A DNA stretch of 20,500 bases from a virus (IMGVR_UViG_3300015185_000049); one strand, 5' to 3'. Counted from the first letter of the stretch, positions 1-20,409 are shown. Notes: generated by a model from the sequence alone, not told the origin. Translations and numbers: made by a program.

Positions 1-645
<645 letters not shown>

Positions 646-5055: not shown

Positions 5056-5400
5056 GATGGTGTTAACTCCGGTCATCACTGGCACTACCATTGCTGGTTC
5101 AGAGTTAAAAAAACTATTATTTTTTTCATAATGTTACCGTAATATGTGAGTATCCATCGACTAGACACTAAGCAAAAAAGCTCCCGAAGGAGCCTTCATT
5201 TTCACTTTCTTAAATCTAACGACAGATGGCTAACATTTAAGTATTGTGAAATATTATCAAATGTAATCATCATTGATTTACAAAAGATACATTTTGCCCC
5301 GAAAGGATTTCTGTCAGAAACATCAAAAGATGATGTTCTATACTGAGAACCATGGCAACACGGGCATCTAAAGTGAATATGGTTTGTAATATTTTCTACC

Positions 5401-5613
5401 TCAAAGTGCCACTACATGAACAGCTGCAGGGCCTTTAGGTCCGTTCTCAATACCAAATTCGACTTCCTGATTCTCAGTTAACGTTTTGAAATCGTTGCTC
5501 TGAATAGCTGAGAAATGCACAAACACATCTTTGCTACCATCTTTCGGCGTGATGAAACCAAAACCTTTTTCAGGGTTAAACCATTTCACTAAACCAGTCA
5601 TTTTGTTAGACAT
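5401..5613 (-). CDS. cspI: Cold shock protein, CspA family (CspI-like)
   Basis: Complete cold-shock domain with RNP1-like motif KGFGFI and RNP2-like VFVHF ([38 protein letters not shown]...), about 70 aa, preceded by a long AT-rich leader as is typical of csp genes. Confidence 0.9.
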
Positions 5614-5976
5614 CATTATTACCTTTTGAAGAAGTTAGCCCTTGGGCAGAATGGTCCGAAAAAAAATATCAGAGAGAAAAACCAACAAGGAAATCTCAAG
5701 AGGTACAAATAATAAAATTATAACAATGACTGCTTCAGATAATTTTGTAACAAACCAGAACACCATTAACGCATGATTAACCAACCATAGCAAGGATTAC
5801 TTTTGTAAAGAAAAACACACGAATGAAACAATAGCTTTATTTATTAATAAAACGTGTCATTCTGTCTAATGACCTTTTATCTTACCCTTAAGATTTCAAG
5901 GATTTTGACTCATGGAAGAGTCCTTTTTATTTAAATTTCACATTCAGCGCTAAAAATAATCCGATTTAATATTAAT

Positions 5977-7316: not shown

Positions 7317-7532
7317 TTACTCTCCTCTCGCAGCCTTACGCCTGTCTTCTTTAATCTTGAAATAAAGATTTGTCAGATACGTCAGCATGCCAAATACCAG
7401 ACTACCCAATACACCTATTGCCGCCCACTGTGAGGGCGTGACTTTATCGAGCAACTGTAAAAACCAGTAGCCAGCACTGCCTGCAGAGGTGCTGTAGGCG
7501 ATGCCCGTTGTTAACTTATCCATGGATTTCAT
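7317..7532 (-). CDS. Holin, class II (phage 21 S-like pinholin) with dual-start motif
   Basis: Sequence [71 protein letters not shown] has two transmembrane segments, a charged C-terminus and the Met1/Met4 dual-start arrangement of S21-type holins. The ORF track extends it upstream to 7616, but that extension is unlikely to be translated. Confidence 0.85.
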
Positions 7533-7722
7533 AGCCTCACCTCCGCAGATAACGGATGGTGTACACGGTTTGGTTCGAAGAAGGAAAGAAGTTACATTAG
7601 CGTAAGGCCCGAACATCTATTCAAAAAGAAAAACGCCAGCAATTATTCTGGCGTAGCTAAAAATATCGTATAATCTTACACTTCAAAAAATAACTTTATA
7701 AAATGCCATCACATCATATCTT

Positions 7723-8445
7723 CTAAGAAAATCTTGATAAATATTGGTGCGGAGGCACACCAAAATATCCTCTAAAAACACTTACAAAATATGATGCATT
7801 GTCATACCCGCATATTCCCGCCACCTTGCCGACAGTATGGTTACTGTAGATCAATAATCTTTGCGCCATCATCATTCGTTCTTCAAGAATTAATTTACTA
7901 AACGATAATCCTTCGTCTTTTAATTTTCTTTTTAACAAACTCTCGCTCATATATAATCTTGAAGATATATCACAAAGTCTCCATGACGCAGAGATATCCG
8001 AGTGAATAATAGCCTTAACTTTACAACCTAAGCTATTAAGACTTCCGAACAAAAAACTTTGCACTATTTTCTCTGAAGATAAGACAGCAAGACATGCAAG
8101 TGATATTTGATTTCTAACTACATCCACGGTTTTGCTATCACAATTCAAGCATGCAACCAAGTTCTTTAACAATGAAAAATCTTCACATTCTACTATCAAG
8201 TATGACGGATAAAACCTTCTTACAGAAAAAGGTGAGAGTGTGTAGTTTTTAAAGAAATCATTAACTGTTTTCTCCTCAACATCTACGATCATTAGATGAT
8301 CTGTATTTGACGAAAAAAGATCTTTTAAATTGTATTCAATGAGGACAGCATTTCCTTTTTTAAACAAAATATCTTCTTTACCAATTCGGACACCAAACGA
8401 GTTCAACACCAAAATGATAGAACATATGTATGGCATATTATCCAC
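7723..8445 (-). CDS. AraC-family transcriptional regulator (cargo gene)
   Basis: 240 aa with a C-terminal AraC-type double HTH (GKVAGICGYDNASYFVSVFRGYFGVPPHQY). The gene is visibly AT-rich and is flanked by long AT-rich non-coding DNA inside the late operon. Confidence 0.8.
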   Translation of the reverse strand: MDNMPYICSIILVLNSFGVRIGKEDILFKKGNAVLIEYNLKDLFSSNTDHLMIVDVEEKTVNDFFKNYTLSPFSVRRFYPSYLIVECEDFSLLKNLVACLNCDSKTVDVVRNQISLACLAVLSSEKIVQSFLFGSLNSLGCKVKAIIHSDISASWRLCDISSRLYMSESLLKRKLKDEGLSFSKLILEERMMMAQRLLIYSNHTVGKVAGICGYDNASYFVSVFRGYFGVPPHQYLSRFS

Positions 8446-8842
8446 CTGATATCATTGGGGTTACACCAGGTAAGTATAGGTGGAAAATCAATATTCGCCA
8501 GTTCAACAATAAGGAAAATCTCATTGCATCACAACTATAAAACCATGTGTTTAACTCACAAAAAACAAATCATTAAACTAATCTGTTATATTATAATAGC
8601 TGCGTGCAATAATAATATTATATGCTCTTAATATTCACTTGAAATATCTTCATATAAAAACAGATTGAATAAAATCTTTTGGGGCTGGTATGTTTACCAA
8701 CATTAAATTGCATCTCAATGTTTTCTTTAGCGTGAACAGGATTTTTATAAAAACTGACACTATGAGCATCATAGCGTAGTTTTTACGATTGTAAATATCC
8801 TGCATACAGGAACTCATCACTTTCAGATGATATCGCATACAG

Positions 8843-9802
8843 TTAATTCACCATCAGTCTTAGAGCCAGTTCTTCCGGATAGGGATCGAAGTAATTCTGT
8901 GTAAGCAAGTAATCATTAGGATACTCACCCAGATAATGCTTCAGCAGAGTCAACGGCGCAAGAAGAGGCAATGTGCCAAAGCGATAGTTAAGTATAACCT
9001 CGCTCAACTCTTTACGCTGGCGTGTGCTTAAGTAATTACTAAAATACCCCTGTATATGCATCAGCACATTCGTGTGATTTTTACGTGATGCTGGTTTTCT
9101 GAGAATCGCCATCAGATTATCACGATACACCTCAAAGTATGATTCAAGGTCCGCCCACTCGTGTATTGCAGCCACAAATGGTCCCATATCTTTATAGCCT
9201 GCCTGGCTATGCGCCAACAACTGAAGCTTATAACGACTATGAAAAGCTAATAACTCTCTTCTTGATAATTTCTCCTTGTAAAGGTGATTGAGCTCATCCA
9301 AAGCAAAAACTCTTTCAATAAAATTCTCACGAAGCACTGGATCATGTAATCGCCCATCCTCTTCAACCGGTAGCCAGGAAAACTTTTCCATCAAAGTGCT
9401 CGTAAATAGTCCCACTCCATCTTTACGACCTCGATTACCATTTTCATCATAGACACGCACGCGCTCCATGCCACAGCTGGGAGATTTAGCACAAACCACA
9501 AACCCCGATACATCCTTTAATTTGTCCATATAAGAACGACTAAACTCTGTCATTCTCTCTGTCACATCCTCATTCTGGTCGTGGCTGAAACACATCCGTA
9601 TATTTCCTTGCTTCGAGCGCACAAGTCGTAGAGCAGGACGCGGAACTGGCAGCCCTATAGCCATTTCCGGACATACTGGTCTGAATGTTACCCATTCCAC
9701 TAATTTGTCCATTAAAAAGTCATCTCTTTTGTGACCACCATCAAAACGAACAGCAGAACCGCCCAAACAACCGCTGATCCCAATCACAGGTTTTTTTATC
9801 AT
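8843..9802 (-). CDS. YbgA-like protein (DUF523 / TudS-type predicted Fe-S domain fused to DUF1722)
   Basis: 319 aa. The N-terminus GISGCLGG...RPVCPEM...VVCAKSPSCGME carries the conserved cysteine pattern of the DUF523/TudS family, and the C-terminal half is DUF1722-like. Overall architecture matches E. coli YbgA (recalled). Confidence 0.7.
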   Translation of the reverse strand: MIKKPVIGISGCLGGSAVRFDGGHKRDDFLMDKLVEWVTFRPVCPEMAIGLPVPRPALRLVRSKQGNIRMCFSHDQNEDVTERMTEFSRSYMDKLKDVSGFVVCAKSPSCGMERVRVYDENGNRGRKDGVGLFTSTLMEKFSWLPVEEDGRLHDPVLRENFIERVFALDELNHLYKEKLSRRELLAFHSRYKLQLLAHSQAGYKDMGPFVAAIHEWADLESYFEVYRDNLMAILRKPASRKNHTNVLMHIQGYFSNYLSTRQRKELSEVILNYRFGTLPLLAPLTLLKHYLGEYPNDYLLTQNYFDPYPEELALRLMVN

Positions 9803-9994
9803 TTCCTCCCCCTTGACTAATTCATTAACACATAAACTGTGTAGTGCACGGAATAAATTGCCTTTCTGACGTCATCACTGACAATTTTTCTGTTATGGAC
9901 TATTCCTAATATAGTATGAAAGTTCTTTAAGTGATCGGTCGTAATCATCTATCTTTCATACTTACTCTCAACTATCAAAAGTACAGGATTGATT

Positions 9995-10519
9995 ATGAAG
10001 TTATGGCCTGTGTTGACTGGCATTGCACTCTCTTTCACTCTTATAGCATGTAAGGCCCCGACACCACCTAAAGGTGTGCAGCCGATTACAAATTTTGACG
10101 CCAACCGCTACCTCGGAAAATGGTATGAAATAGCTCGCCTCGAGAACCGGTTCGAACGTGGTCTGGAACAGGTCAGCGCTACTTATGGAAAACGGAACGA
10201 CGGAGGGATTCGTGTACTTAACCGTGGATACGATCCAACGAAAAATAAATGGAGCGAGAGCGAAGGTAAAGCATACTTTACTGGAGATACTAAAACTGCA
10301 GCGTTGAAGGTTTCGTTTTTTGGCCCCTTCTATGGTGGCTATAATGTAATCAAACTGGATGATGAGTATAAGTATGCTCTTGTTAGTGGTTCGAACAGAG
10401 AATACCTATGGATTCTGGCAAGGACCCCAACTATTCCAGATAAAGTAAAAGCAGACTATGTGCGAACCGCTCAAAAGTTGGGATTCAATGTCAATGAATT
10501 ATTATGGGTTAAACAATAA
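9995..10519 (+). CDS. blc: Bacterial lipocalin (Blc-like outer-membrane lipoprotein)
   Basis: Lipoprotein signal with lipobox LIAC, then the lipocalin signature FDANRYLGKWYEIARLENRFERG and downstream SFFGPFYGGYNV...YLWILARTP, closely resembling E. coli Blc. The ORF track starts at a TTG at 9989; ATG at 9995 is the likelier start. Confidence 0.85.
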   Translation: MKLWPVLTGIALSFTLIACKAPTPPKGVQPITNFDANRYLGKWYEIARLENRFERGLEQVSATYGKRNDGGIRVLNRGYDPTKNKWSESEGKAYFTGDTKTAALKVSFFGPFYGGYNVIKLDDEYKYALVSGSNREYLWILARTPTIPDKVKADYVRTAQKLGFNVNELLWVKQ

Positions 10520-10546
10520 AATCCCTACCCGAAATGATACTTATTA

Positions 10547-10575
10547 GAAAAAAACCAGCCTTTGGGGAGGCTGGC
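10547..10575 (-). terminator. Rho-independent terminator, candidate tR' downstream of Q
   Basis: Inverted repeat CCAGCCT / AGGCTGG (about 10555-10574) with a 6-nt loop, followed on the minus strand by a run of 7-8 T (the plus-strand A-run at about 10547-10554). Confidence 0.55.
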
Positions 10576-10624
10576 TAAATCAGGAAACAAGCTGTTATAT
10601 GATAATAACTACGTTGCGATTCCA

Positions 10625-10665
10625 ACATTTAAAATGTTAGACTAATGACAATCAGACAGCAACTT
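10625..10665 (-). promoter_or_regulatory. Candidate late promoter PR' with qut region
   Basis: On the minus strand, TTGCTG (-35, plus 10657-10662), a 17-nt spacer and TAACAT (-10, plus 10634-10639), lying between the Q stop and the terminator at 10547-10575. This is the layout expected for a Q-dependent late promoter with a short leader transcript. Confidence 0.35.
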
Positions 10666-10674
10666 TTCCTTTAA

Positions 10675-11052
10675 TTATTTCGAACAATCAGCATCCATCT
10701 CCAATCGGAGATCCAATACCATCAGCATGCCCTCCACTACGCCCTCAGCTTTCTGGAGCATCCTGCCAACCCAACAATCAGATCGCCCATGCTTACGTGC
10801 AAGCGCCATAAAAGTCATGCCGCCGACATAATAGTCCACCAATAAACCATGTAAATCGCTGTTGTTTTTTCTCAGGCGAGCCATACATTCACAAATGATC
10901 ATCGCGTCATCGTCACAGCATTGCGGACGAGATCTTACTTTTGAAGGAATTAATCCCTTAAAACCAGCGGCAATGGACGACCAGGTCACATCTTCATGAT
11001 TATTAGCCGCCCATGCCCCCCAACGCTCAAGAACCATCTGAATATCACGCAT
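10675..11052 (-). CDS. Antitermination protein Q (phage 82 / QuuD-type)
   Basis: [76 protein letters not shown]... closely matches my recollection of the QuuD/QuuQ family, including the Cys-rich segment. The gene is immediately upstream of the promoter/terminator module. Confidence 0.85.
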
Positions 11053-11069
11053 CAACTTACTCCACATAA

Positions 11070-12158
11070 TTAGGCCAGCACACCAATTGCCAGCGCGCGA
11101 TCGATAAATCGAAAAATCAGCTCCAGTTGGGAGCCATACTTCTCTTCAAATGCCACGGTATCCGTATGCAACTCGTCGTGATGCTTTCTGCACAAAGGCA
11201 ACACAAAGAGATCATGTGCTTTGGTTCCCATTCCGCCCTGCCCGTGACCAATCAGATGATGCGGATCGTCGGCTGGCATCCCGCAGCAAGCACACGGCTG
11301 TGTCTTAACCCAGCGTGTGTATTTCTCCTTAACCCAACGGTGACGTTTAGGCAGCTTCATGAAAGATTCCGGAGACTCTGGATCAACGGTGATGCTTACC
11401 ACCGTCTTTTCCTGTGGTGGTTTTTGTTGCTGGTGGGCGTAAGGCAACGGTGCAAGATTTTTTGTGCGTTGTTTCAATATGCTGGTGGCGGCCTGCTCTC
11501 CCGGTACGATGTCGCTCTCGCGGTACACCGAGCAGATTTTTTCCGCTGGTAATCCCAGCGAACGACGTAATACCGCTTCCGGTAGCGCGTCCGCCACCTG
11601 ATTGCGGAGCGCCCACCAGGATAATTCAGCCAGAGATAATTCACGCTCCTGCGTACCGCTTATTGCGTGACCGATGACGTCAATCATCCATGCTGACAGG
11701 TTTTGATGAGCAAGTTGCTCGAGTGATTCGGATGTCTGGTCACGCAGTTGGTTGTCGCAGTGCCAGCACAACACCATTGCGCCGGTACCATAACGGTGAA
11801 TGACGGTTTCGCTGTGATGATAATCGCCGTGCGGCCACTGGCAGGATTTAATATGGCGCAACAGCCAGTCAGACAATGCACCAGCACCACCAGCAGCACG
11901 AATCACCCGTGCGTTACTGAAAAACGGCAGCAATGTTTTGTCTTCCACCAGCGGCTGGCGAACGGCAGGAACGACCCCGGACGGCAGATTACGCATGCTT
12001 TTCGGTTCCGGCTCCACCAGTACCCGGGTATTGTGGAATACCGGCATGGATTCACGGCCTAGTTTAAGGACCACCAGCCCAAGCTCTGGCACCAGAACAG
12101 GTCTAAGTAATACCCGCACGTTACCTCCAGATCCGTTGCTGGAAAGTGCGGGACGCAC
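11070..12158 (-). CDS. DUF968 (YdfU-like) protein with C-terminal HNH-like Cys/His motif
   Basis: 362-aa ORF directly upstream of Q, the position of ydfU in Qin. The C-terminus has CACCG...[32 protein letters not shown], reminiscent of a His-Me finger / HNH zinc motif. The start is uncertain; an internal Met near 12047 would remove the overlap with the upstream ORF. Confidence 0.7.
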
Positions 12159-12505: not shown

Positions 12506-13651
12506 TTATTTTTGTTTTATGGTAAATGAAATAACATTGTCAGAATGAATCATATCTGATTCTTTAAATCGTGTAATTGCAGATAACTCATTTAAGGGAA
12601 GAGCAAAGATATCAGTTAACTCAGTTACCTTTATGATTGAATGCTTATCAAGAAGTAAAAGTAACTTATTAAGTAACTCAGGCTCTTCTTTTGGGATTGC
12701 ATCATCTAACGGCTCCCTACGATGGAATGGCGCTAATTGCTTAAATATATAGCTTTTCTGATTATCGCTGATTAACTTAAGGCTATGACTCCTCATGGCA
12801 ATACTACCGATAGATGTAATCCAACGTAGTTTTAATCGTTCTAACGCTGATAAATTTGGACTATAAAATTCACGCCCGAAAGTGGTGGCTGGCATTAAAA
12901 AGCTGGAGGCAAAATAATCGGCCTGCAACTCCACCAGGTCGAATAATTCTTTATCATTCAGGTAGTCATCCTCCACTGCCCTATGCATAATTAAATGGCC
13001 AAGTTCATGAGCAAGACTAAATCGCATGCGAACAGCCGTCTTCGAGCTATCTAACATAATTAAAGGCCGCCCATTATGCCAGAACGAAAAGGCATCAACT
13101 TTCTCACCAGAAGGTAAATGAGAAACCACGATTCCTTTATTTTCAACAAGTCTAGTTAAATTGAGTATTGGACCATCACCTAACCCCCAAAAACGCCTTA
13201 ATTGGGTGGACATATCCTCAATATCAGATAGAGACAGAACCTCAAAATCAATAATATCGAATTCAGGCAGAACCACATCTGGTAATTGAGCATATTTTAG
13301 ACATTCATCCAATATTAATGCCGCCCAACGCCCACGTGTTTTCCCTGTAACTCGAGCCTTTTTGGTCGCAGTTGAACGACTTCTAAAATGAATCGCCCCC
13401 TCCAGAGATGGAGAAGCACTGGAGGCTAAGAAAAATCGTTCTGGAAATCCTAACACCTTGGCTATTGCAGAAAGTGTATCAGCAGAGGGAGACTTCAACC
13501 CCTTCTCAAATGACGAAATAGCTTGTCTTGAAATATTGAGCACTCTGGCAAGTTCAGCCATCGTCAACCCTTTTGCCTCTCTTGCCTCCTCAAGGCGACG
13601 AGGATTAAACGATTTATCAGTAAATGGTGTTTGTGCGATATTCATGCTCAT
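12506..13651 (-). CDS. Fusion protein: N-terminal XRE-type HTH plus ImmA/IrrE-family zinc metallopeptidase (HEXXH), with a roughly 130-aa C-terminal extension
   Basis: 381 aa. The N-terminus LTMAELARVLNISRQAISSFEKG is a classic XRE HTH; the central SLAHELGHLIMH is an HExxH zinc-peptidase motif in an ImmA/IrrE (COG2856)-like context. Start overlaps the upstream gene's stop by 4 bp (ATGA). AT-rich. Confidence 0.8.
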   Translation of the reverse strand: MSMNIAQTPFTDKSFNPRRLEEAREAKGLTMAELARVLNISRQAISSFEKGLKSPSADTLSAIAKVLGFPERFFLASSASPSLEGAIHFRSRSTATKKARVTGKTRGRWAALILDECLKYAQLPDVVLPEFDIIDFEVLSLSDIEDMSTQLRRFWGLGDGPILNLTRLVENKGIVVSHLPSGEKVDAFSFWHNGRPLIMLDSSKTAVRMRFSLAHELGHLIMHRAVEDDYLNDKELFDLVELQADYFASSFLMPATTFGREFYSPNLSALERLKLRWITSIGSIAMRSHSLKLISDNQKSYIFKQLAPFHRREPLDDAIPKEEPELLNKLLLLLDKHSIIKVTELTDIFALPLNELSAITRFKESDMIHSDNVISFTIKQK

Positions 13652-14262
13652 GATTGCTGTGATTTAATTATTTGTTCGGTAAGAATCTTGATTTTATCTT
13701 CAATCTCAGAATCCACATTTTCTGCTTCAACTTCTACCATCGTCATAATTGGTAAAGACTCAGTATAAAGAATCCCGTAATTATCCGAAGAAGGAACAGT
13801 TAAATTCAGTTTGGACAAGTGCTGATTACTGCCATCATGTAACATATAAACATGTCCACCAGACGCTCTCCCATCCAGGGAGTCGGCATTTTCATCCCCA
13901 AAATTCAATTCATAATTTTGATTAGCGTAAACAGCTCTATACAATGCCTGCTTAGGAAGTGGCGCATTACCCGATAAATGATGTGCCGTCATTTTCCAGT
14001 TGTTCGAGTGAATCGCAATGTGTTTACAATTTTTAGCAGCATTGCTACCGACTTCAAAATCCAGCCCCACACGCTTAGCCGCATTCTCAAGCAATGCATC
14101 GGCATAAAACCAGCGCAAATATGACTGTGCTTGAGCCCAAAAAGAACCAAACTCTTTTGCCTTCATATGCGAATGAAGATAAGCCTGTGCTAACGCGATC
14201 GAAAGCTCTTTGCGGCACTCCTTGTCATATGCTTCTAACAACTGTTGAGATAAATTCTGCAT
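13648..14262 (-). CDS. Protein of unknown function, first gene of the cassette (candidate toxin or effector partner)
   Basis: 204-aa ORF with an SD-like AAGGA upstream and translational coupling to the HTH-peptidase gene. No motif recognised; acidic C-terminal tail. Confidence 0.65.
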   Translation of the reverse strand: MQNLSQQLLEAYDKECRKELSIALAQAYLHSHMKAKEFGSFWAQAQSYLRWFYADALLENAAKRVGLDFEVGSNAAKNCKHIAIHSNNWKMTAHHLSGNAPLPKQALYRAVYANQNYELNFGDENADSLDGRASGGHVYMLHDGSNQHLSKLNLTVPSSDNYGILYTESLPIMTMVEVEAENVDSEIEDKIKILTEQIIKSQQS

Positions 14263-14428: not shown

Positions 14429-14584
14429 TTACTCCTCAGGTTCGTAAGCTGTGAAGACAGCGACCTCCGTCTGGCCGGTTCGGATTCGTACCTCGCAGAG
14501 GTCTTTCCTCGTTACCAGTGCCGTCACTATGACGGTTAAACAGATGACGATCAGGGCGATTAACATCGCCTTTTGCTGCTTCAT
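14429..14584 (-). CDS. hokD: Hok-family type I toxin (HokD/RelF-like)
   Basis: MKQQKAMLIALIVICLTVIVTALVTRKDLCEVRIRTGQTEVAVFTAYEPEE, 51 aa, has the Hok transmembrane and periplasmic pattern and matches HokD as I recall it. Confidence 0.9.
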   Translation of the reverse strand: MKQQKAMLIALIVICLTVIVTALVTRKDLCEVRIRTGQTEVAVFTAYEPEE

Positions 14585-14641
14585 AGCCTGCTTCTCCTTG
14601 CCTTCCGGCACGTAAGAGGCTAACCTACATGTGTCTAGCAT
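14429..14641 (-). CDS. mok: mok (modulator of killing) reading frame overlapping hok
   Basis: In-frame 19-codon upstream extension of hok (MLDTCRLASYVPEGKEKQA...), as in hok/sok loci where mok translation is coupled to hok. Confidence 0.55.
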   Translation of the reverse strand: MLDTCRLASYVPEGKEKQAMKQQKAMLIALIVICLTVIVTALVTRKDLCEVRIRTGQTEVAVFTAYEPEE

Positions 14642-14700
14642 GAAATTGGCCTCAGATTAATGTTAAGCGTCTTGCAGGACGCGTAATGTTAACTGGGGCT
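14598..14700 (+). ncRNA. sok: Candidate Sok-like antisense RNA with promoter
   Basis: Plus-strand TTGCCT (14598-14603), 17-nt spacer, TAACCT (14621-14626), antisense to the mok start region. Boundaries are not determined and no experimental support is available. Confidence 0.3.
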
Positions 14701-14795
14701 TTTCTCTATCTGCCGTTGGTGTTCATGCCTGAGGCAGATAGCCTCAAGCACCCGCAGCAATTCTACTTAACTCACGTCACCTCGCCAATATAAAA

Positions 14796-20351: not shown

Positions 20352-20409
20352 TTTCTGGTGACGTTTAGCGGTATCAGTTTTACTCCGTGACTGCTCTGCC
20401 GCCGTTTTT
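20352..20409 (+). ncRNA. dicF: DicF small RNA (cell-division inhibitor sRNA) with 3' terminator hairpin
   Basis: TTTCTGGTGACGTTTAGCGGTATCAGTTTTACTCCGTGACTGCTCTGCCGCCGTTTTT is near-identical to my recollection of K-12 DicF, ending in a GC-rich stem and U-run. Located downstream of the ydfA-like operon as in Qin. Confidence 0.75.

What the first reader, a model, noticed from the sequence alone, without database searches (positions are those of the whole stretch)
7723..8445. AT-rich AraC-family regulator inside the late operon: candidate prophage-encoded regulator of host genes
Seen in sequence: 240-aa protein with a C-terminal AraC double HTH and an N-terminal domain of unknown specificity. The gene is markedly AT-rich and preceded by about 400 bp of AT-rich non-coding DNA. 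Established knowledge: prophage-borne AraC-like regulators in E. coli (AppY in DLP12, PatE/PsrA/PsrB-type regulators in EHEC prophages) cross-regulate host acid-resistance and virulence genes. Inference: this may be another member of that class; I cannot tell which from sequence reading alone.
Basis: partly seen in the sequence, partly recalled or inferred. Interest (0 to 1): 0.5.

Follow-up and report, generated by a model that had tools for sequence, protein, structure and literature searches.

The report
Prophage PatE-like AraC regulator gene
This is an intact, AT-rich gene for an uncharacterised AraC-type regulator carried as extra cargo between the Q antiterminator and the lysis genes of a lambda-like E. 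coli prophage; its closest studied relatives (PatE, PsrA/B, AppY, GadW, YdeO) switch on the host's acid-resistance genes, so it is a new member of a known class, not a new kind of system.

Summary
Window 7723-8445 (minus strand) is an intact ORF with a C-terminal AraC double helix-turn-helix. The gene has 33.5% GC and follows 406 bp of 31%-GC DNA, against 45% for the window. The start is more likely ATG 8436 (237 aa) than GTG 8445.

The protein is homologous over its full length to PatE of O157:H7 (48% identity, E 3e-76), PsrA (38%), GadW (33%), AppY (30%) and YdeO (29%). A neighbour-joining tree puts it in a sister clade of PatE. The first recognition helix is nearly identical to PatE's, and the lysine needed for AppY DNA binding (K170) is conserved.

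The gene lies in a conserved three-gene cargo cassette (lipocalin, YbgA-family, AraC) between Q and the holin. That cassette occurs in several lambdoid prophage backgrounds and in an isolated phage. The gene is under purifying selection (omega about 0.2; DNA-binding half about 0.1).

It is an orthologue of no characterised regulator, and I found no paper on it. The most likely function, inferred and untested, is trans-activation of the gadE/hdeA acid-resistance regulon. This is a new member of a known kind, of modest interest.

The parts
7723..8436 (-). CDS for a 237-aa AraC/XylS-family regulator of the PatE/Psr/AppY/GadW/YdeO clade. N-terminal domain about residues 1-134; two-HTH DNA-binding domain about 135-237.
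   Evidence: ORF; Pfam HTH_18 and HTH_AraC; NCBIfam YdeO model aligned full length; BLASTP to PatE, PsrA, GadW, AppY, YdeO; RefSeq WP_001146314.1 at the identical locus; omega about 0.2.
8437..8445 (-). Probably untranslated: the GTG lies within the Shine-Dalgarno-like GGTGGA (8446-8441).
   Evidence: Sequence; homologue alignments begin at residue 4; SD and ATG invariant in four variant loci.
8437..8842 (-). 406-bp AT-rich (31% GC) non-coding leader/promoter region between the YbgA-family gene and the regulator gene.
   Evidence: GC; alignment of four variant loci showing conserved and deleted blocks.
8473..8500 (-). Candidate proximal promoter: TGGCGA (8500-8495), 16 nt, TATACT (8478-8473). 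It overlaps a block that is invariant in all variants, TTTCCACCTATACTTAC (8486-8470).
   Evidence: Read from sequence; conservation. Consensus match only; not flagged by the promoter scan.
8768..8795 (-). Candidate distal promoter TTTACA-16-TATGAT (10 of 12 matches), invariant in all four variant loci. It overlaps a hairpin just after the YbgA stop codon, which could instead be the YbgA terminator.
   Evidence: Promoter and terminator scan; conservation.
8580..8605 (-). 26-nt block in the leader (ACGCAGCTATTATAATATAACAGATT), homologous to a block just downstream of the Q gene.
   Evidence: the repeat finder family D1; alignment; 22 of 26 identical, score 16 against shuffles 9.0 +/- 1.0, 0 of 300 shuffles reach it.
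10589..10614 (-). Partner copy of the 26-nt block. It lies between the Q stop codon (10675) and the tR'-like hairpin, where a lambdoid late promoter/qut region is expected.
7633..7654 (-). Intrinsic-terminator-like hairpin plus T-run (ACGCCAGAATAATTGCTGGCGT TTTTCTTTTT) between the regulator's stop codon and the holin gene.
   Evidence: sequence.
10553..10576 (-). Terminator-like hairpin about 100 nt downstream of Q (tR'-like), preceding the cargo cassette.
8843..9802 (-). YbgA-family gene (2-thiouracil desulfurase domain plus DUF1722); cassette neighbour immediately upstream.
   Evidence: Pfam; RefSeq annotation; conserved synteny.
9995..10519 (+). Blc-like lipocalin gene; first gene of the cassette, on the strand opposite to the late genes.
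   Evidence: Pfam Lipocalin_2 2.6e-43; annotation.
10675..11052 (-). Q antiterminator gene: upstream boundary of the cargo site.
   Evidence: Pfam Phage_antitermQ 3e-50.
7317..7532 (-). Holin gene essD: downstream boundary of the cargo site. It is followed by ydfR, rrrQ and rzpQ.
   Evidence: Pfam Phage_holin_2_1; annotation.

Best explanation
The gene encodes a trans-acting AraC/XylS-type transcription factor. It belongs to the small enterobacterial clade that contains the prophage regulators PatE, PsrA/PsrB and AppY and the chromosomal acid-resistance regulators GadW and YdeO.

It is phage cargo (a moron). It sits in a lipocalin / YbgA-family / AraC cassette inserted between the Q antiterminator gene and the lysis genes of a Qin-like lambdoid prophage.

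Shown here: family and clade membership, an intact ORF, purifying selection, conserved DNA-contact residues, the cassette's anatomy, and its spread.

Inferred from relatives:
- In the lysogen the AT-rich gene is expressed at a low, conditionally de-repressed level from its own promoter(s), probably subject to H-NS silencing like other AT-rich acquired genes.
- The protein binds AT-rich sites in host promoters such as gadE and hdeA, activates the glutamate-dependent acid-resistance regulon, and so increases acid survival of the lysogen.
- In LEE-positive hosts the same pathway would indirectly repress type III secretion through GadE.
- After induction, Q-modified RNA polymerase would also read through the gene on its way to the lysis genes.
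For: Family:
- Pfam HTH_18 and HTH_AraC score above their cut-offs.

Clade:
- Full-length BLASTP hits to PatE (47.7%, E 3e-76), PsrA (38%), GadW (33%), AppY (30%) and YdeO (29%).
- The NCBIfam YdeO model aligns over residues 4-234 against model positions 1-229 of 253.
- The neighbour-joining tree puts the window clade sister to PatE, with Psr next.
- Only 9 representatives of 50%-identity clusters reach E <= 1e-30 among 1.84 billion proteins, so this is a narrow family.

DNA-binding determinants:
- The C-terminal domain is 65% identical to PatE.
- The first recognition helix is SESLLKRKLKDEG, against SESLLKRKLKEEG in PatE.
- AppY K170, whose K170E change abolishes DNA binding (PMC10057817), corresponds to K169 here and is invariant in all 12 clade members aligned.

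Selection:
- dN/dS is 0.20-0.21 overall, 0.10-0.11 in the DNA-binding half and 0.34-0.56 in the N-terminal half.

Anatomy and spread:
- The same cassette lies between Q and the holin in three other prophage backgrounds and in the isolated phage IdasGreatGrand.
- 330 of 5426 complete E. coli genomes carry the gene at >=99% nucleotide identity, and 996 carry a copy covering at least 80% of it.
- PsrA of Sakai Sp4 occupies the same Q-to-lysis position.
- There is a terminator-like hairpin after the gene.
- Low GC is shared with patE (0.35) and appY (0.32).

Function of relatives:
- PatE and PsrB activate gadE and hdeA; PsrA/B repress T3SS through GadE (review PMC10877973).
- AppY directly activates gadE and gadY and raises acid resistance (PMC10057817).
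Against: - No experiment or published dataset on this protein was found.
- Identity to any characterised regulator is at most 48% overall and 34% in the N-terminal domain, so targets and signals may differ.
- The YdeO equivalog cut-off is not met: 112 bits against 348.
- The tight, conserved linkage with the YbgA-family and lipocalin genes would also fit a local regulator.
- The promoter-like matches are no more frequent than in shuffled sequence: 12 found, 12.2 expected.
- Some alleles are truncated or disrupted by IS1 (H40; P0012 and P0013), so the gene is dispensable in some lineages.
- The structure model is of low confidence, mean pLDDT 66.7.
Confidence: 0.6

Rival explanations
1. The protein is a local regulator of the cargo cassette. 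It controls the adjacent YbgA-family (TudS-like desulfidase) and/or lipocalin genes in response to a small-molecule signal, and has no significant role at host promoters.
For: The lipocalin / YbgA / AraC trio is kept together in four prophage backgrounds and in one isolated phage. 839 genomes keep the YbgA-AraC junction. Many AraC-family members regulate neighbouring genes (established knowledge). The fold search gives full-length similarity to the ligand-binding regulators Rns, CsvR and ToxT.
Against: The closest clades have unrelated neighbours: PatE follows tail-fibre genes next to an IS fragment; PsrA sits next to a CAAX protease gene and tRNA genes; AppY follows tfaX. All characterised members act on distant host promoters. 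The regulator gene and YbgA have different histories: dS is 0.045 for YbgA against 0.74-0.79 for the regulator's C-terminal half. No repeated operator-like motif links the YbgA/lipocalin intergenic region with the regulator's leader.
Confidence: 0.15
2. The protein regulates the phage itself. Being inside the late transcription unit, it modulates late-gene or lysis expression, or lysogeny maintenance, rather than host physiology.
For: It lies on the late strand between Q and the holin. A 26-nt block from the Q-downstream (late-promoter) region is duplicated in its leader. Some prophage transcription factors control both phage and host operons (title and abstract of PMC11879457).
Against: Related lambdoid prophages work with other cargo, or none, at this site: nmpC in DLP12, and a CAAX protease, PsrA and tRNAs in Sp4. 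No clade member is known to regulate phage late genes. The gene has atypical composition and its own terminator-like hairpin, as expected for an add-on rather than a core phage function.
Confidence: 0.1
3. The gene is a silent, functionally irrelevant passenger. It is permanently silenced in lysogens and hitch-hikes with the phage.
For: AT-rich gene and leader. Truncated and IS1-interrupted alleles exist. Most prophage genes are silent (abstract of PMC10057817).
Against: dN/dS of about 0.2 overall and about 0.1 in the DNA-binding domain, over dS up to 0.8, shows sustained purifying selection. The ORF is intact in about 1000 complete genomes and in isolated phages. The Shine-Dalgarno, ATG and leader blocks are invariant across diverged variants.
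Confidence: 0.1

Closest known systems
PatE (Z0321, OI-8 / CP-933I of E. coli O157:H7 EDL933)
   Same: Closest characterised relative. 47.7% identity over the full 237 aa and 65% in the DNA-binding domain, with a near-identical first recognition helix. Sister clade in the tree. Prophage-borne and AT-rich (GC 0.35). A PatE orthologue is also present in isolated phages such as mEp332 (98.8% to PatE); other phage records match the window protein at the same 46.8% (PhiR70_1, ev099).
   Different: Not an orthologue: only 34% identity in the N-terminal domain. The genomic position differs: PatE follows the tail-fibre genes next to an IS remnant, whereas this gene lies between Q and the holin in a YbgA/lipocalin cassette. 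PatE's activation of gadE and hdeA and repression of LEE genes is experimental; nothing has been tested for this protein.
PsrA / PsrB (Z1789 and Z2104; ECs_1087 in Sakai Sp4)
   Same: Same clade, 38% identity over the full length. PsrA occupies the same kind of site, downstream of the Q antiterminator and upstream of the lysis genes of a lambdoid prophage. Both act through gadE/yhiF.
   Different: More distant than PatE. Different cargo neighbours (CAAX protease, ileZ-argN-argO tRNAs, Pch regulators, effector loci). No tRNA genes in this window.
AppY (DLP12 prophage, E. coli K-12)
   Same: Prophage-encoded, very AT-rich (GC 0.32), with 30% full-length identity. The DNA-binding lysine K170 is conserved. 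AppY directly activates gadE and gadY and raises acid resistance.
   Different: AppY groups with GadW in the tree, not with this protein. It is located at the prophage end after tfaX. Its 8-bp motif ATGSCWGM cannot be assumed to apply here.
GadW and YdeO (chromosomal acid-resistance regulators); GadX
   Same: Full-length homology to GadW (33%) and YdeO (29%). YdeO is the best-scoring NCBIfam model. The solved GadX DNA-binding domain (3mkl) is the best PDB sequence hit (4e-21) and superposes on the model with TM 0.77-0.80.
   Different: Below every equivalog cut-off. GadX matches only in the C-terminal domain. These are core-genome genes, not phage cargo.
Rns / CsvR / ToxT (fatty-acid-responsive virulence AraC regulators)
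   Same: Same overall architecture: a small beta-rich N-terminal domain, a helical linker and two HTH motifs. Foldseek gives E 1e-10 to 1e-6 over the full length. PDB sequence hits to CsvR and Rns (E about 1e-18 to 1e-17) cover residues 99/118-236; those to ToxT (E about 1e-11) cover residues 19-234.
   Different: Only about 20% identity. TM is only about 0.38 and rmsd about 18 A, because the model is of low confidence (pLDDT 66.7). No evidence of a fatty-acid pocket. Different gene contexts and targets.

Membership tests
AraC/XylS family of transcription factors | C-terminal about 100-residue domain with two helix-turn-helix motifs | tested here: met
   Pfam HTH_18 at residues 161-237, 59.9 bits (cut-off 33.6); HTH_AraC 42.6 bits (cut-off 26.6). 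The GadX DNA-binding domain 3mkl matches residues 138-235, E 4e-21.
GadW / YdeO / AppY / PatE / Psr clade (acid-resistance-type AraC regulators) | Homology over the whole length, including the clade-specific N-terminal domain (about 240-aa proteins beginning M-x-x-x-C-S) | tested here: met
   BLASTP alignments cover residues 4-240 of the 240-aa ORF for PatE, PsrA, GadW, AppY and YdeO. M1 and C5 are invariant and S6 nearly invariant (11 of 12) in the 12-sequence alignment. The YdeO model aligns at positions 1-229 of 253.
GadW / YdeO / AppY / PatE / Psr clade (acid-resistance-type AraC regulators) | Conserved DNA-contact residues of the first recognition helix, including the lysine equivalent to AppY K170 | tested here: met
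   K169 aligns with AppY K170 and is invariant in all 12 sequences. The helix SESLLKRKLKDEG differs from PatE's at one position. The K170E phenotype is from PMC10057817.
GadW / YdeO / AppY / PatE / Psr clade (acid-resistance-type AraC regulators) | Binds and activates gadE / hdeA / gadY-type promoters and raises acid resistance | not testable with these tools
   Requires expression, ChIP or EMSA, and acid-challenge experiments. A search for the 20-bp GAD box in the window found nothing, which says nothing about host targets.
PatE orthologue | High identity to Z0321 and the same locus (after tail-fibre genes of a CP-933I-type prophage) | tested here: not met
   47.7% identity, whereas a true orthologue in phage mEp332 is 98.8% identical to PatE. 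The position also differs.
PsrA / PsrB orthologue | High identity to Z1789/Z2104 (which are 90% identical to each other) and association with effector and Pch loci | tested here: not met
   38% identity to Sakai PsrA. No pch or effector genes in the window. Only the Q-to-lysis position is shared.
YdeO (NCBIfam NF007407 equivalog) | Score at or above the curated cut-off of 348 bits | tested here: not met
   112.3 bits.
Lambdoid-phage moron (cargo gene) | A non-essential insert between conserved phage genes, with atypical base composition | tested here: met
   It lies between Q and the holin. Other phages carry different cargo at that site (nmpC in DLP12; CAAX protease, PsrA and tRNAs in Sp4). 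GC is 0.335 against 0.47 for the flanking phage genes.
Lambdoid-phage moron (cargo gene) | Its own promoter and its own terminator | tested here: inconclusive
   A terminator-like hairpin with a T-run lies at 7654-7633. Promoter-like hexamers at 8795-8768 and 8500-8473 fall in blocks invariant across variants, but such matches are no more frequent than in shuffles. No transcript mapping is available.

The most novel reading that the evidence does not exclude
The regulator gene is wired into the phage's late-transcription logic. A roughly 26-40-nt copy of the sequence that lies immediately downstream of Q, where a lambdoid late promoter and Q-loading site normally sit, is duplicated in the regulator's leader. 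This copy lacks the terminator hairpin that follows the original. If the copy is an active, terminator-less late-type promoter or Q-utilisation element, the phage would express a host acid-resistance master activator constitutively in lysogens, or in a Q-coupled burst at induction. Together with the conserved lipocalin and TudS-like YbgA partners, the cassette would then be a coordinated host-reprogramming module rather than three unrelated cargo genes.
Probability: 0.1. Interest if true: 0.6.

Novelty: new member of a known kind. Interest (0 to 1): 0.3.

Why it matters
Prophage-borne AraC-like regulators (AppY, PatE, PsrA/B) are the best-documented cases of phage cargo rewiring a core stress regulon, the GAD acid-resistance system. 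In EHEC they also affect type III secretion.

This gene defines an uncharacterised sister clade of PatE. The clade is present in about 18% of complete E. coli genomes (996 of 5426 with a near-full-length copy). It also travels on viable temperate phages.

If it acts like its relatives, it is a common, phage-transmissible modifier of acid survival, and hence of gastric passage and colonisation, in commensal, ETEC and animal-associated E. coli, well beyond O157. It would also explain strain-to-strain variation in acid-resistance phenotypes.

It opens no new mechanistic category.

Tried and rejected
- The primary papers on PatE (PMC3416394), PsrB (PMC4288888) and Psr (Tree 2011, by DOI) are not held. 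I relied on the review PMC10877973. I could not check whether this protein is one of the 'six additional Psr homologs' mentioned there.
- Searches for the RefSeq accessions of this protein and its variants, and for the cassette's gene combination, found no relevant paper.
- A 2025 preprint overexpresses a 'PatE' (CIW80_12240) of E. coli Nissle and finds higher acid survival. I tried to map that tag in NZ_CP022686.1. The RefSeq tag with that number is bcsZ, near the gad/bcs region and not in a prophage. The gene's identity is unresolved, so I did not use the preprint as evidence.
- A search for the GAD box (TTAGGATTTTGTTATTTAAA, up to 3 mismatches) gave 0 matches in the window.
- Rfam found no RNA family in 7500-11100, and ARAGORN found no tRNA in the window.
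- An alignment of the Q-downstream region with K-12 DLP12 and Sakai Sp4 was uninformative. I could therefore not identify the late promoter itself.
- The AlphaFold model from an 11-sequence alignment had mean pLDDT 66.7 and pTM 0.46. Its PDB matches support only the general architecture and the DNA-binding domain, so I drew no conclusion about a ligand pocket.
- The 62-aa ORF (8650-8838) in the leader was rejected as a gene, because it is not frame-conserved in the variants.

Full report
**1. What is there**

The minus strand of the window carries an uninterrupted ORF at 7723-8445: 240 aa if started at GTG. Pfam places an AraC-type double helix-turn-helix at residues 161-237. HTH_18 scores 59.9 bits against a cut-off of 33.6, and HTH_AraC 42.6 against 26.6.

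The start is more likely ATG 8436, giving 237 aa, for three reasons:
- Every homologue aligns from residue 4.
- RefSeq annotates the identical gene as 714 bp (WP_001146314.1).
- The GTG lies inside a GGTGGA Shine-Dalgarno-like hexamer four bases before the ATG. The hexamer and the ATG are invariant in diverged copies.

The gene has 33.5% GC. The 406 bp upstream of it (8437-8842) has 31.0% GC. The window as a whole has 45.3%, and the flanking phage genes about 47%. A 62-aa ORF in the upstream stretch is not frame-conserved in variant loci and has no family match, so the stretch is best read as non-coding.

**2. Context**

The window is 100% identical over the queried 1.3 kb (7600-8900) to a Qin-like lambdoid prophage of E. 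coli strain PD23 and several other strains. On the late (minus) strand the order is:
- Q antiterminator (10675-11052)
- a terminator-like hairpin about 100 nt downstream of Q (10576-10553)
- a Blc-like lipocalin gene on the opposite strand (9995-10519)
- a YbgA-family gene with 2-thiouracil-desulfurase and DUF1722 domains (8843-9802)
- the AT-rich leader, then the regulator gene
- a terminator-like hairpin with a T-run (7654-7633)
- the lysis genes essD, ydfR, rrrQ and rzpQ

The gene is thus physically inside the late transcription unit, at the classic cargo site of lambdoid phages. Other phages carry different cargo there. DLP12 has nmpC. Sakai Sp4 has a CAAX protease gene, psrA and three tRNA genes.

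The lipocalin / YbgA / AraC trio is conserved as a unit in three other prophage backgrounds: a remnant next to ybhC in an O6:H16 strain, and two DLP12-like prophages that also carry iss. It is also present in the isolated phage IdasGreatGrand.

**3. Which regulator it is**

BLASTP against sequences taken from annotated records gives full-length matches:

| Protein | Source | Identity | E-value |
|---|---|---|---|
| PatE | O157:H7, L002:5664-6407 | 47.7% over 237 aa | 3e-76 |
| PsrA | Sakai ECs_1087, extended ORF L003:18678-19391 | 38% | 4e-47 |
| GadW | K-12 | 33% | 6e-45 |
| AppY | K-12 | 30% | 4e-41 |
| YdeO | K-12 | 29% | 3e-32 |
| GadX | K-12 | 41% over 101 aa (DNA-binding domain only) | 2e-24 |

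Further points:
- The best NCBIfam model is YdeO, aligned end to end but far below the equivalog cut-off (112 bits against 348). Sugar-operon regulators (RhaS/R, AraC) score much lower and only over the HTH domain.
- In a neighbour-joining tree, the window protein, its E. coli variants (85% and 76% identical), the IdasGreatGrand copy and a 60%-identical representative form a clade. That clade is sister to PatE plus its phage mEp332 orthologue. The Psr clade is next, and the GadW/AppY and YdeO groups lie further out.
- An exhaustive profile-free search of 1.84 billion cluster representatives found only 9 at E <= 1e-30. The full-length family is therefore narrow.
- Identity to PatE is 65% in the DNA-binding half and 34% in the N-terminal half.
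- The first recognition helix (SESLLKRKLKDEG) differs from PatE's at one position.
- The lysine whose K170E substitution abolishes AppY DNA binding (PMC10057817) corresponds to K169 here. It is invariant in all twelve aligned clade members.

**4. Is it functional?**

Against three variant loci, dN/dS is 0.20-0.21 overall. It is 0.10-0.11 in the DNA-binding half and 0.34-0.56 in the N-terminal half. This is clear purifying selection, strongest on DNA binding.

The gene is mosaic. Against L007 and L009, synonymous divergence is 0.096 in the N-terminal half, close to YbgA's 0.045, but 0.74-0.79 in the C-terminal half. A recombination junction therefore lies inside the gene. The C-terminal end also differs: 237 aa here against 243 aa in the variants.

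Distribution:
- 330 of 5426 complete E. coli genomes carry the gene at >=99% nucleotide identity.
- 996 carry a copy covering at least 80% of it.
- 1605 have some match.
- Homologues of 76-86% identity are on isolated lambdoid phages.

Some alleles are disrupted: an IS1 insertion (H40) and 133-aa and 195-aa forms. The gene is therefore dispensable in some lineages.

**5. Expression signals (weak evidence)**

Two promoter-like elements lie in blocks that are invariant across diverged variants:
- TTTACA-16-TATGAT at 8795-8768. It overlaps a hairpin that might instead terminate YbgA.
- TGGCGA-16-TATACT at 8500-8473, about 35 nt before the ATG.

Such consensus matches are no more frequent than in shuffled sequence, so they are only candidates. 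The hairpin at 7654-7633 gives the gene a terminator of its own. Q-modified polymerase would be expected to read through it (established knowledge of lambdoid antitermination).

The low GC of gene and leader is shared with patE and appY. By established knowledge of xenogeneic silencing, it makes H-NS repression likely. This is inferred, not shown.

**6. An unexplained detail**

A 26-nt block in the leader (8605-8580) is 22/26 identical to a block between the Q stop codon and the tR'-like hairpin (10614-10589). The ungapped score is 16, against 9.0 +/- 1.0 in 300 dinucleotide shuffles, none of which reaches it. With gaps the similarity extends to about 40 nt.

The block is present in the same two places in L009 and in IdasGreatGrand, and is deleted from the leader in L008. 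The Q-proximal copy is followed by the terminator hairpin; the leader copy is not. It may be a scar of the recombination that assembled the cassette, or a second late-promoter-like element. I could not identify the late promoter itself, so this stays open.

**7. Mechanism proposed**

Shown: an intact, selected, phage-transmissible gene for an AraC/XylS regulator of the PatE/Psr/AppY/GadW/YdeO clade, with conserved DNA-contact residues, in a cargo cassette.

Inferred from relatives: PatE and PsrB activate gadE and hdeA, PsrA/B repress type III secretion through GadE, and AppY directly activates gadE and gadY and raises acid survival. On that basis the protein would act in trans on AT-rich host promoters of the GAD regulon and increase acid resistance of the lysogen. 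I put this at about 0.6.

Rivals:
- a local regulator of the YbgA/lipocalin cassette (0.15)
- a regulator of phage functions (0.1)
- a silent passenger (0.1)

The arguments for and against each are given in the Rival explanations section.

**8. Structure**

An AlphaFold model from an 11-sequence alignment was of low confidence (pLDDT 66.7, pTM 0.46). Foldseek matched the whole chain to CsvR, Rns and ToxT (E 1e-10 to 1e-6, but TM about 0.38). It matched the C-terminal domain to the solved GadX DNA-binding domain (TM 0.77-0.80, 40% identity). This supports the general two-domain architecture and nothing more.

**9. Novelty and verdict**

No paper on this protein or cassette was found. The primary Psr and PatE papers are not held, so I cannot exclude that the clade was listed among unnamed 'Psr homologs'.

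It is a new, widespread, uncharacterised member of a known kind of prophage-encoded regulator. Interest is modest (0.3): a specialist would not be surprised, but the clade is common enough to be worth one overexpression, ChIP and acid-challenge experiment.

Noticed in passing
window 12506-14262 (- strand): Two adjacent genes match the Rosmer anti-phage defence system. The 381-aa HTH_3 + Peptidase_M78 protein matches RmrA full length (PADLOC 5.5e-102). The upstream 204-aa protein matches RmrT weakly (7.5e-10). They sit in the prophage early-right region between hokD and the DUF968/Q genes.
   Followed up: partly
window 8843-10519; L007, L008, L009, L010: A Blc-like lipocalin gene and a YbgA-family gene (2-thiouracil desulfurase domain plus DUF1722) travel with the regulator as a conserved three-gene cargo cassette in several lambdoid prophages and in phage IdasGreatGrand. 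What a phage gains from a TudS-like desulfidase and a lipocalin is not obvious.
   Followed up: partly
window 7723-8436 compared with L007:5010-5741 and L009:5010-5741: There is a recombination junction inside the regulator gene. Synonymous divergence is 0.096 in the N-terminal half and 0.74-0.79 in the C-terminal half, and the C-terminal ends differ (237 against 243 aa).
   Followed up: yes
window 8580-8605 and 10589-10614 (- strand): A 26-nt block (22/26 identical; 0 of 300 shuffles reach its score) is shared between the regulator's leader and the region just downstream of Q. Only the Q-proximal copy is followed by a terminator hairpin.
   Followed up: partly
window 14579-14753 (-), 5355-5771 (-), 1-73 (-), 20353-20404 (+): Rfam matches above gathering score: sok antitoxin RNA (next to hokD), the cspA-type thermoregulator leader (upstream of cspI), isrC (cut off by the window end) and DicF. 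These are typical of Qin-like prophages.
   Followed up: no
NZ_LS483297.1 (H40); proteins P0012, P0013: Some alleles of the regulator are interrupted by IS1 or occur as 195-aa and 133-aa forms. The 195-aa form stands for 623 member sequences and may be a gene-calling choice, as for Sakai ECs_1087, which is annotated at 195 aa although a 237-aa ORF is open.
   Followed up: partly
L003:18678-19391 (Sakai Sp4): psrA (ECs_1087) is annotated from an internal start (588 bp). The ORF is open from an ATG 126 bp further upstream, and the longer 237-aa product aligns from residue 1 with all clade members.
   Followed up: partly
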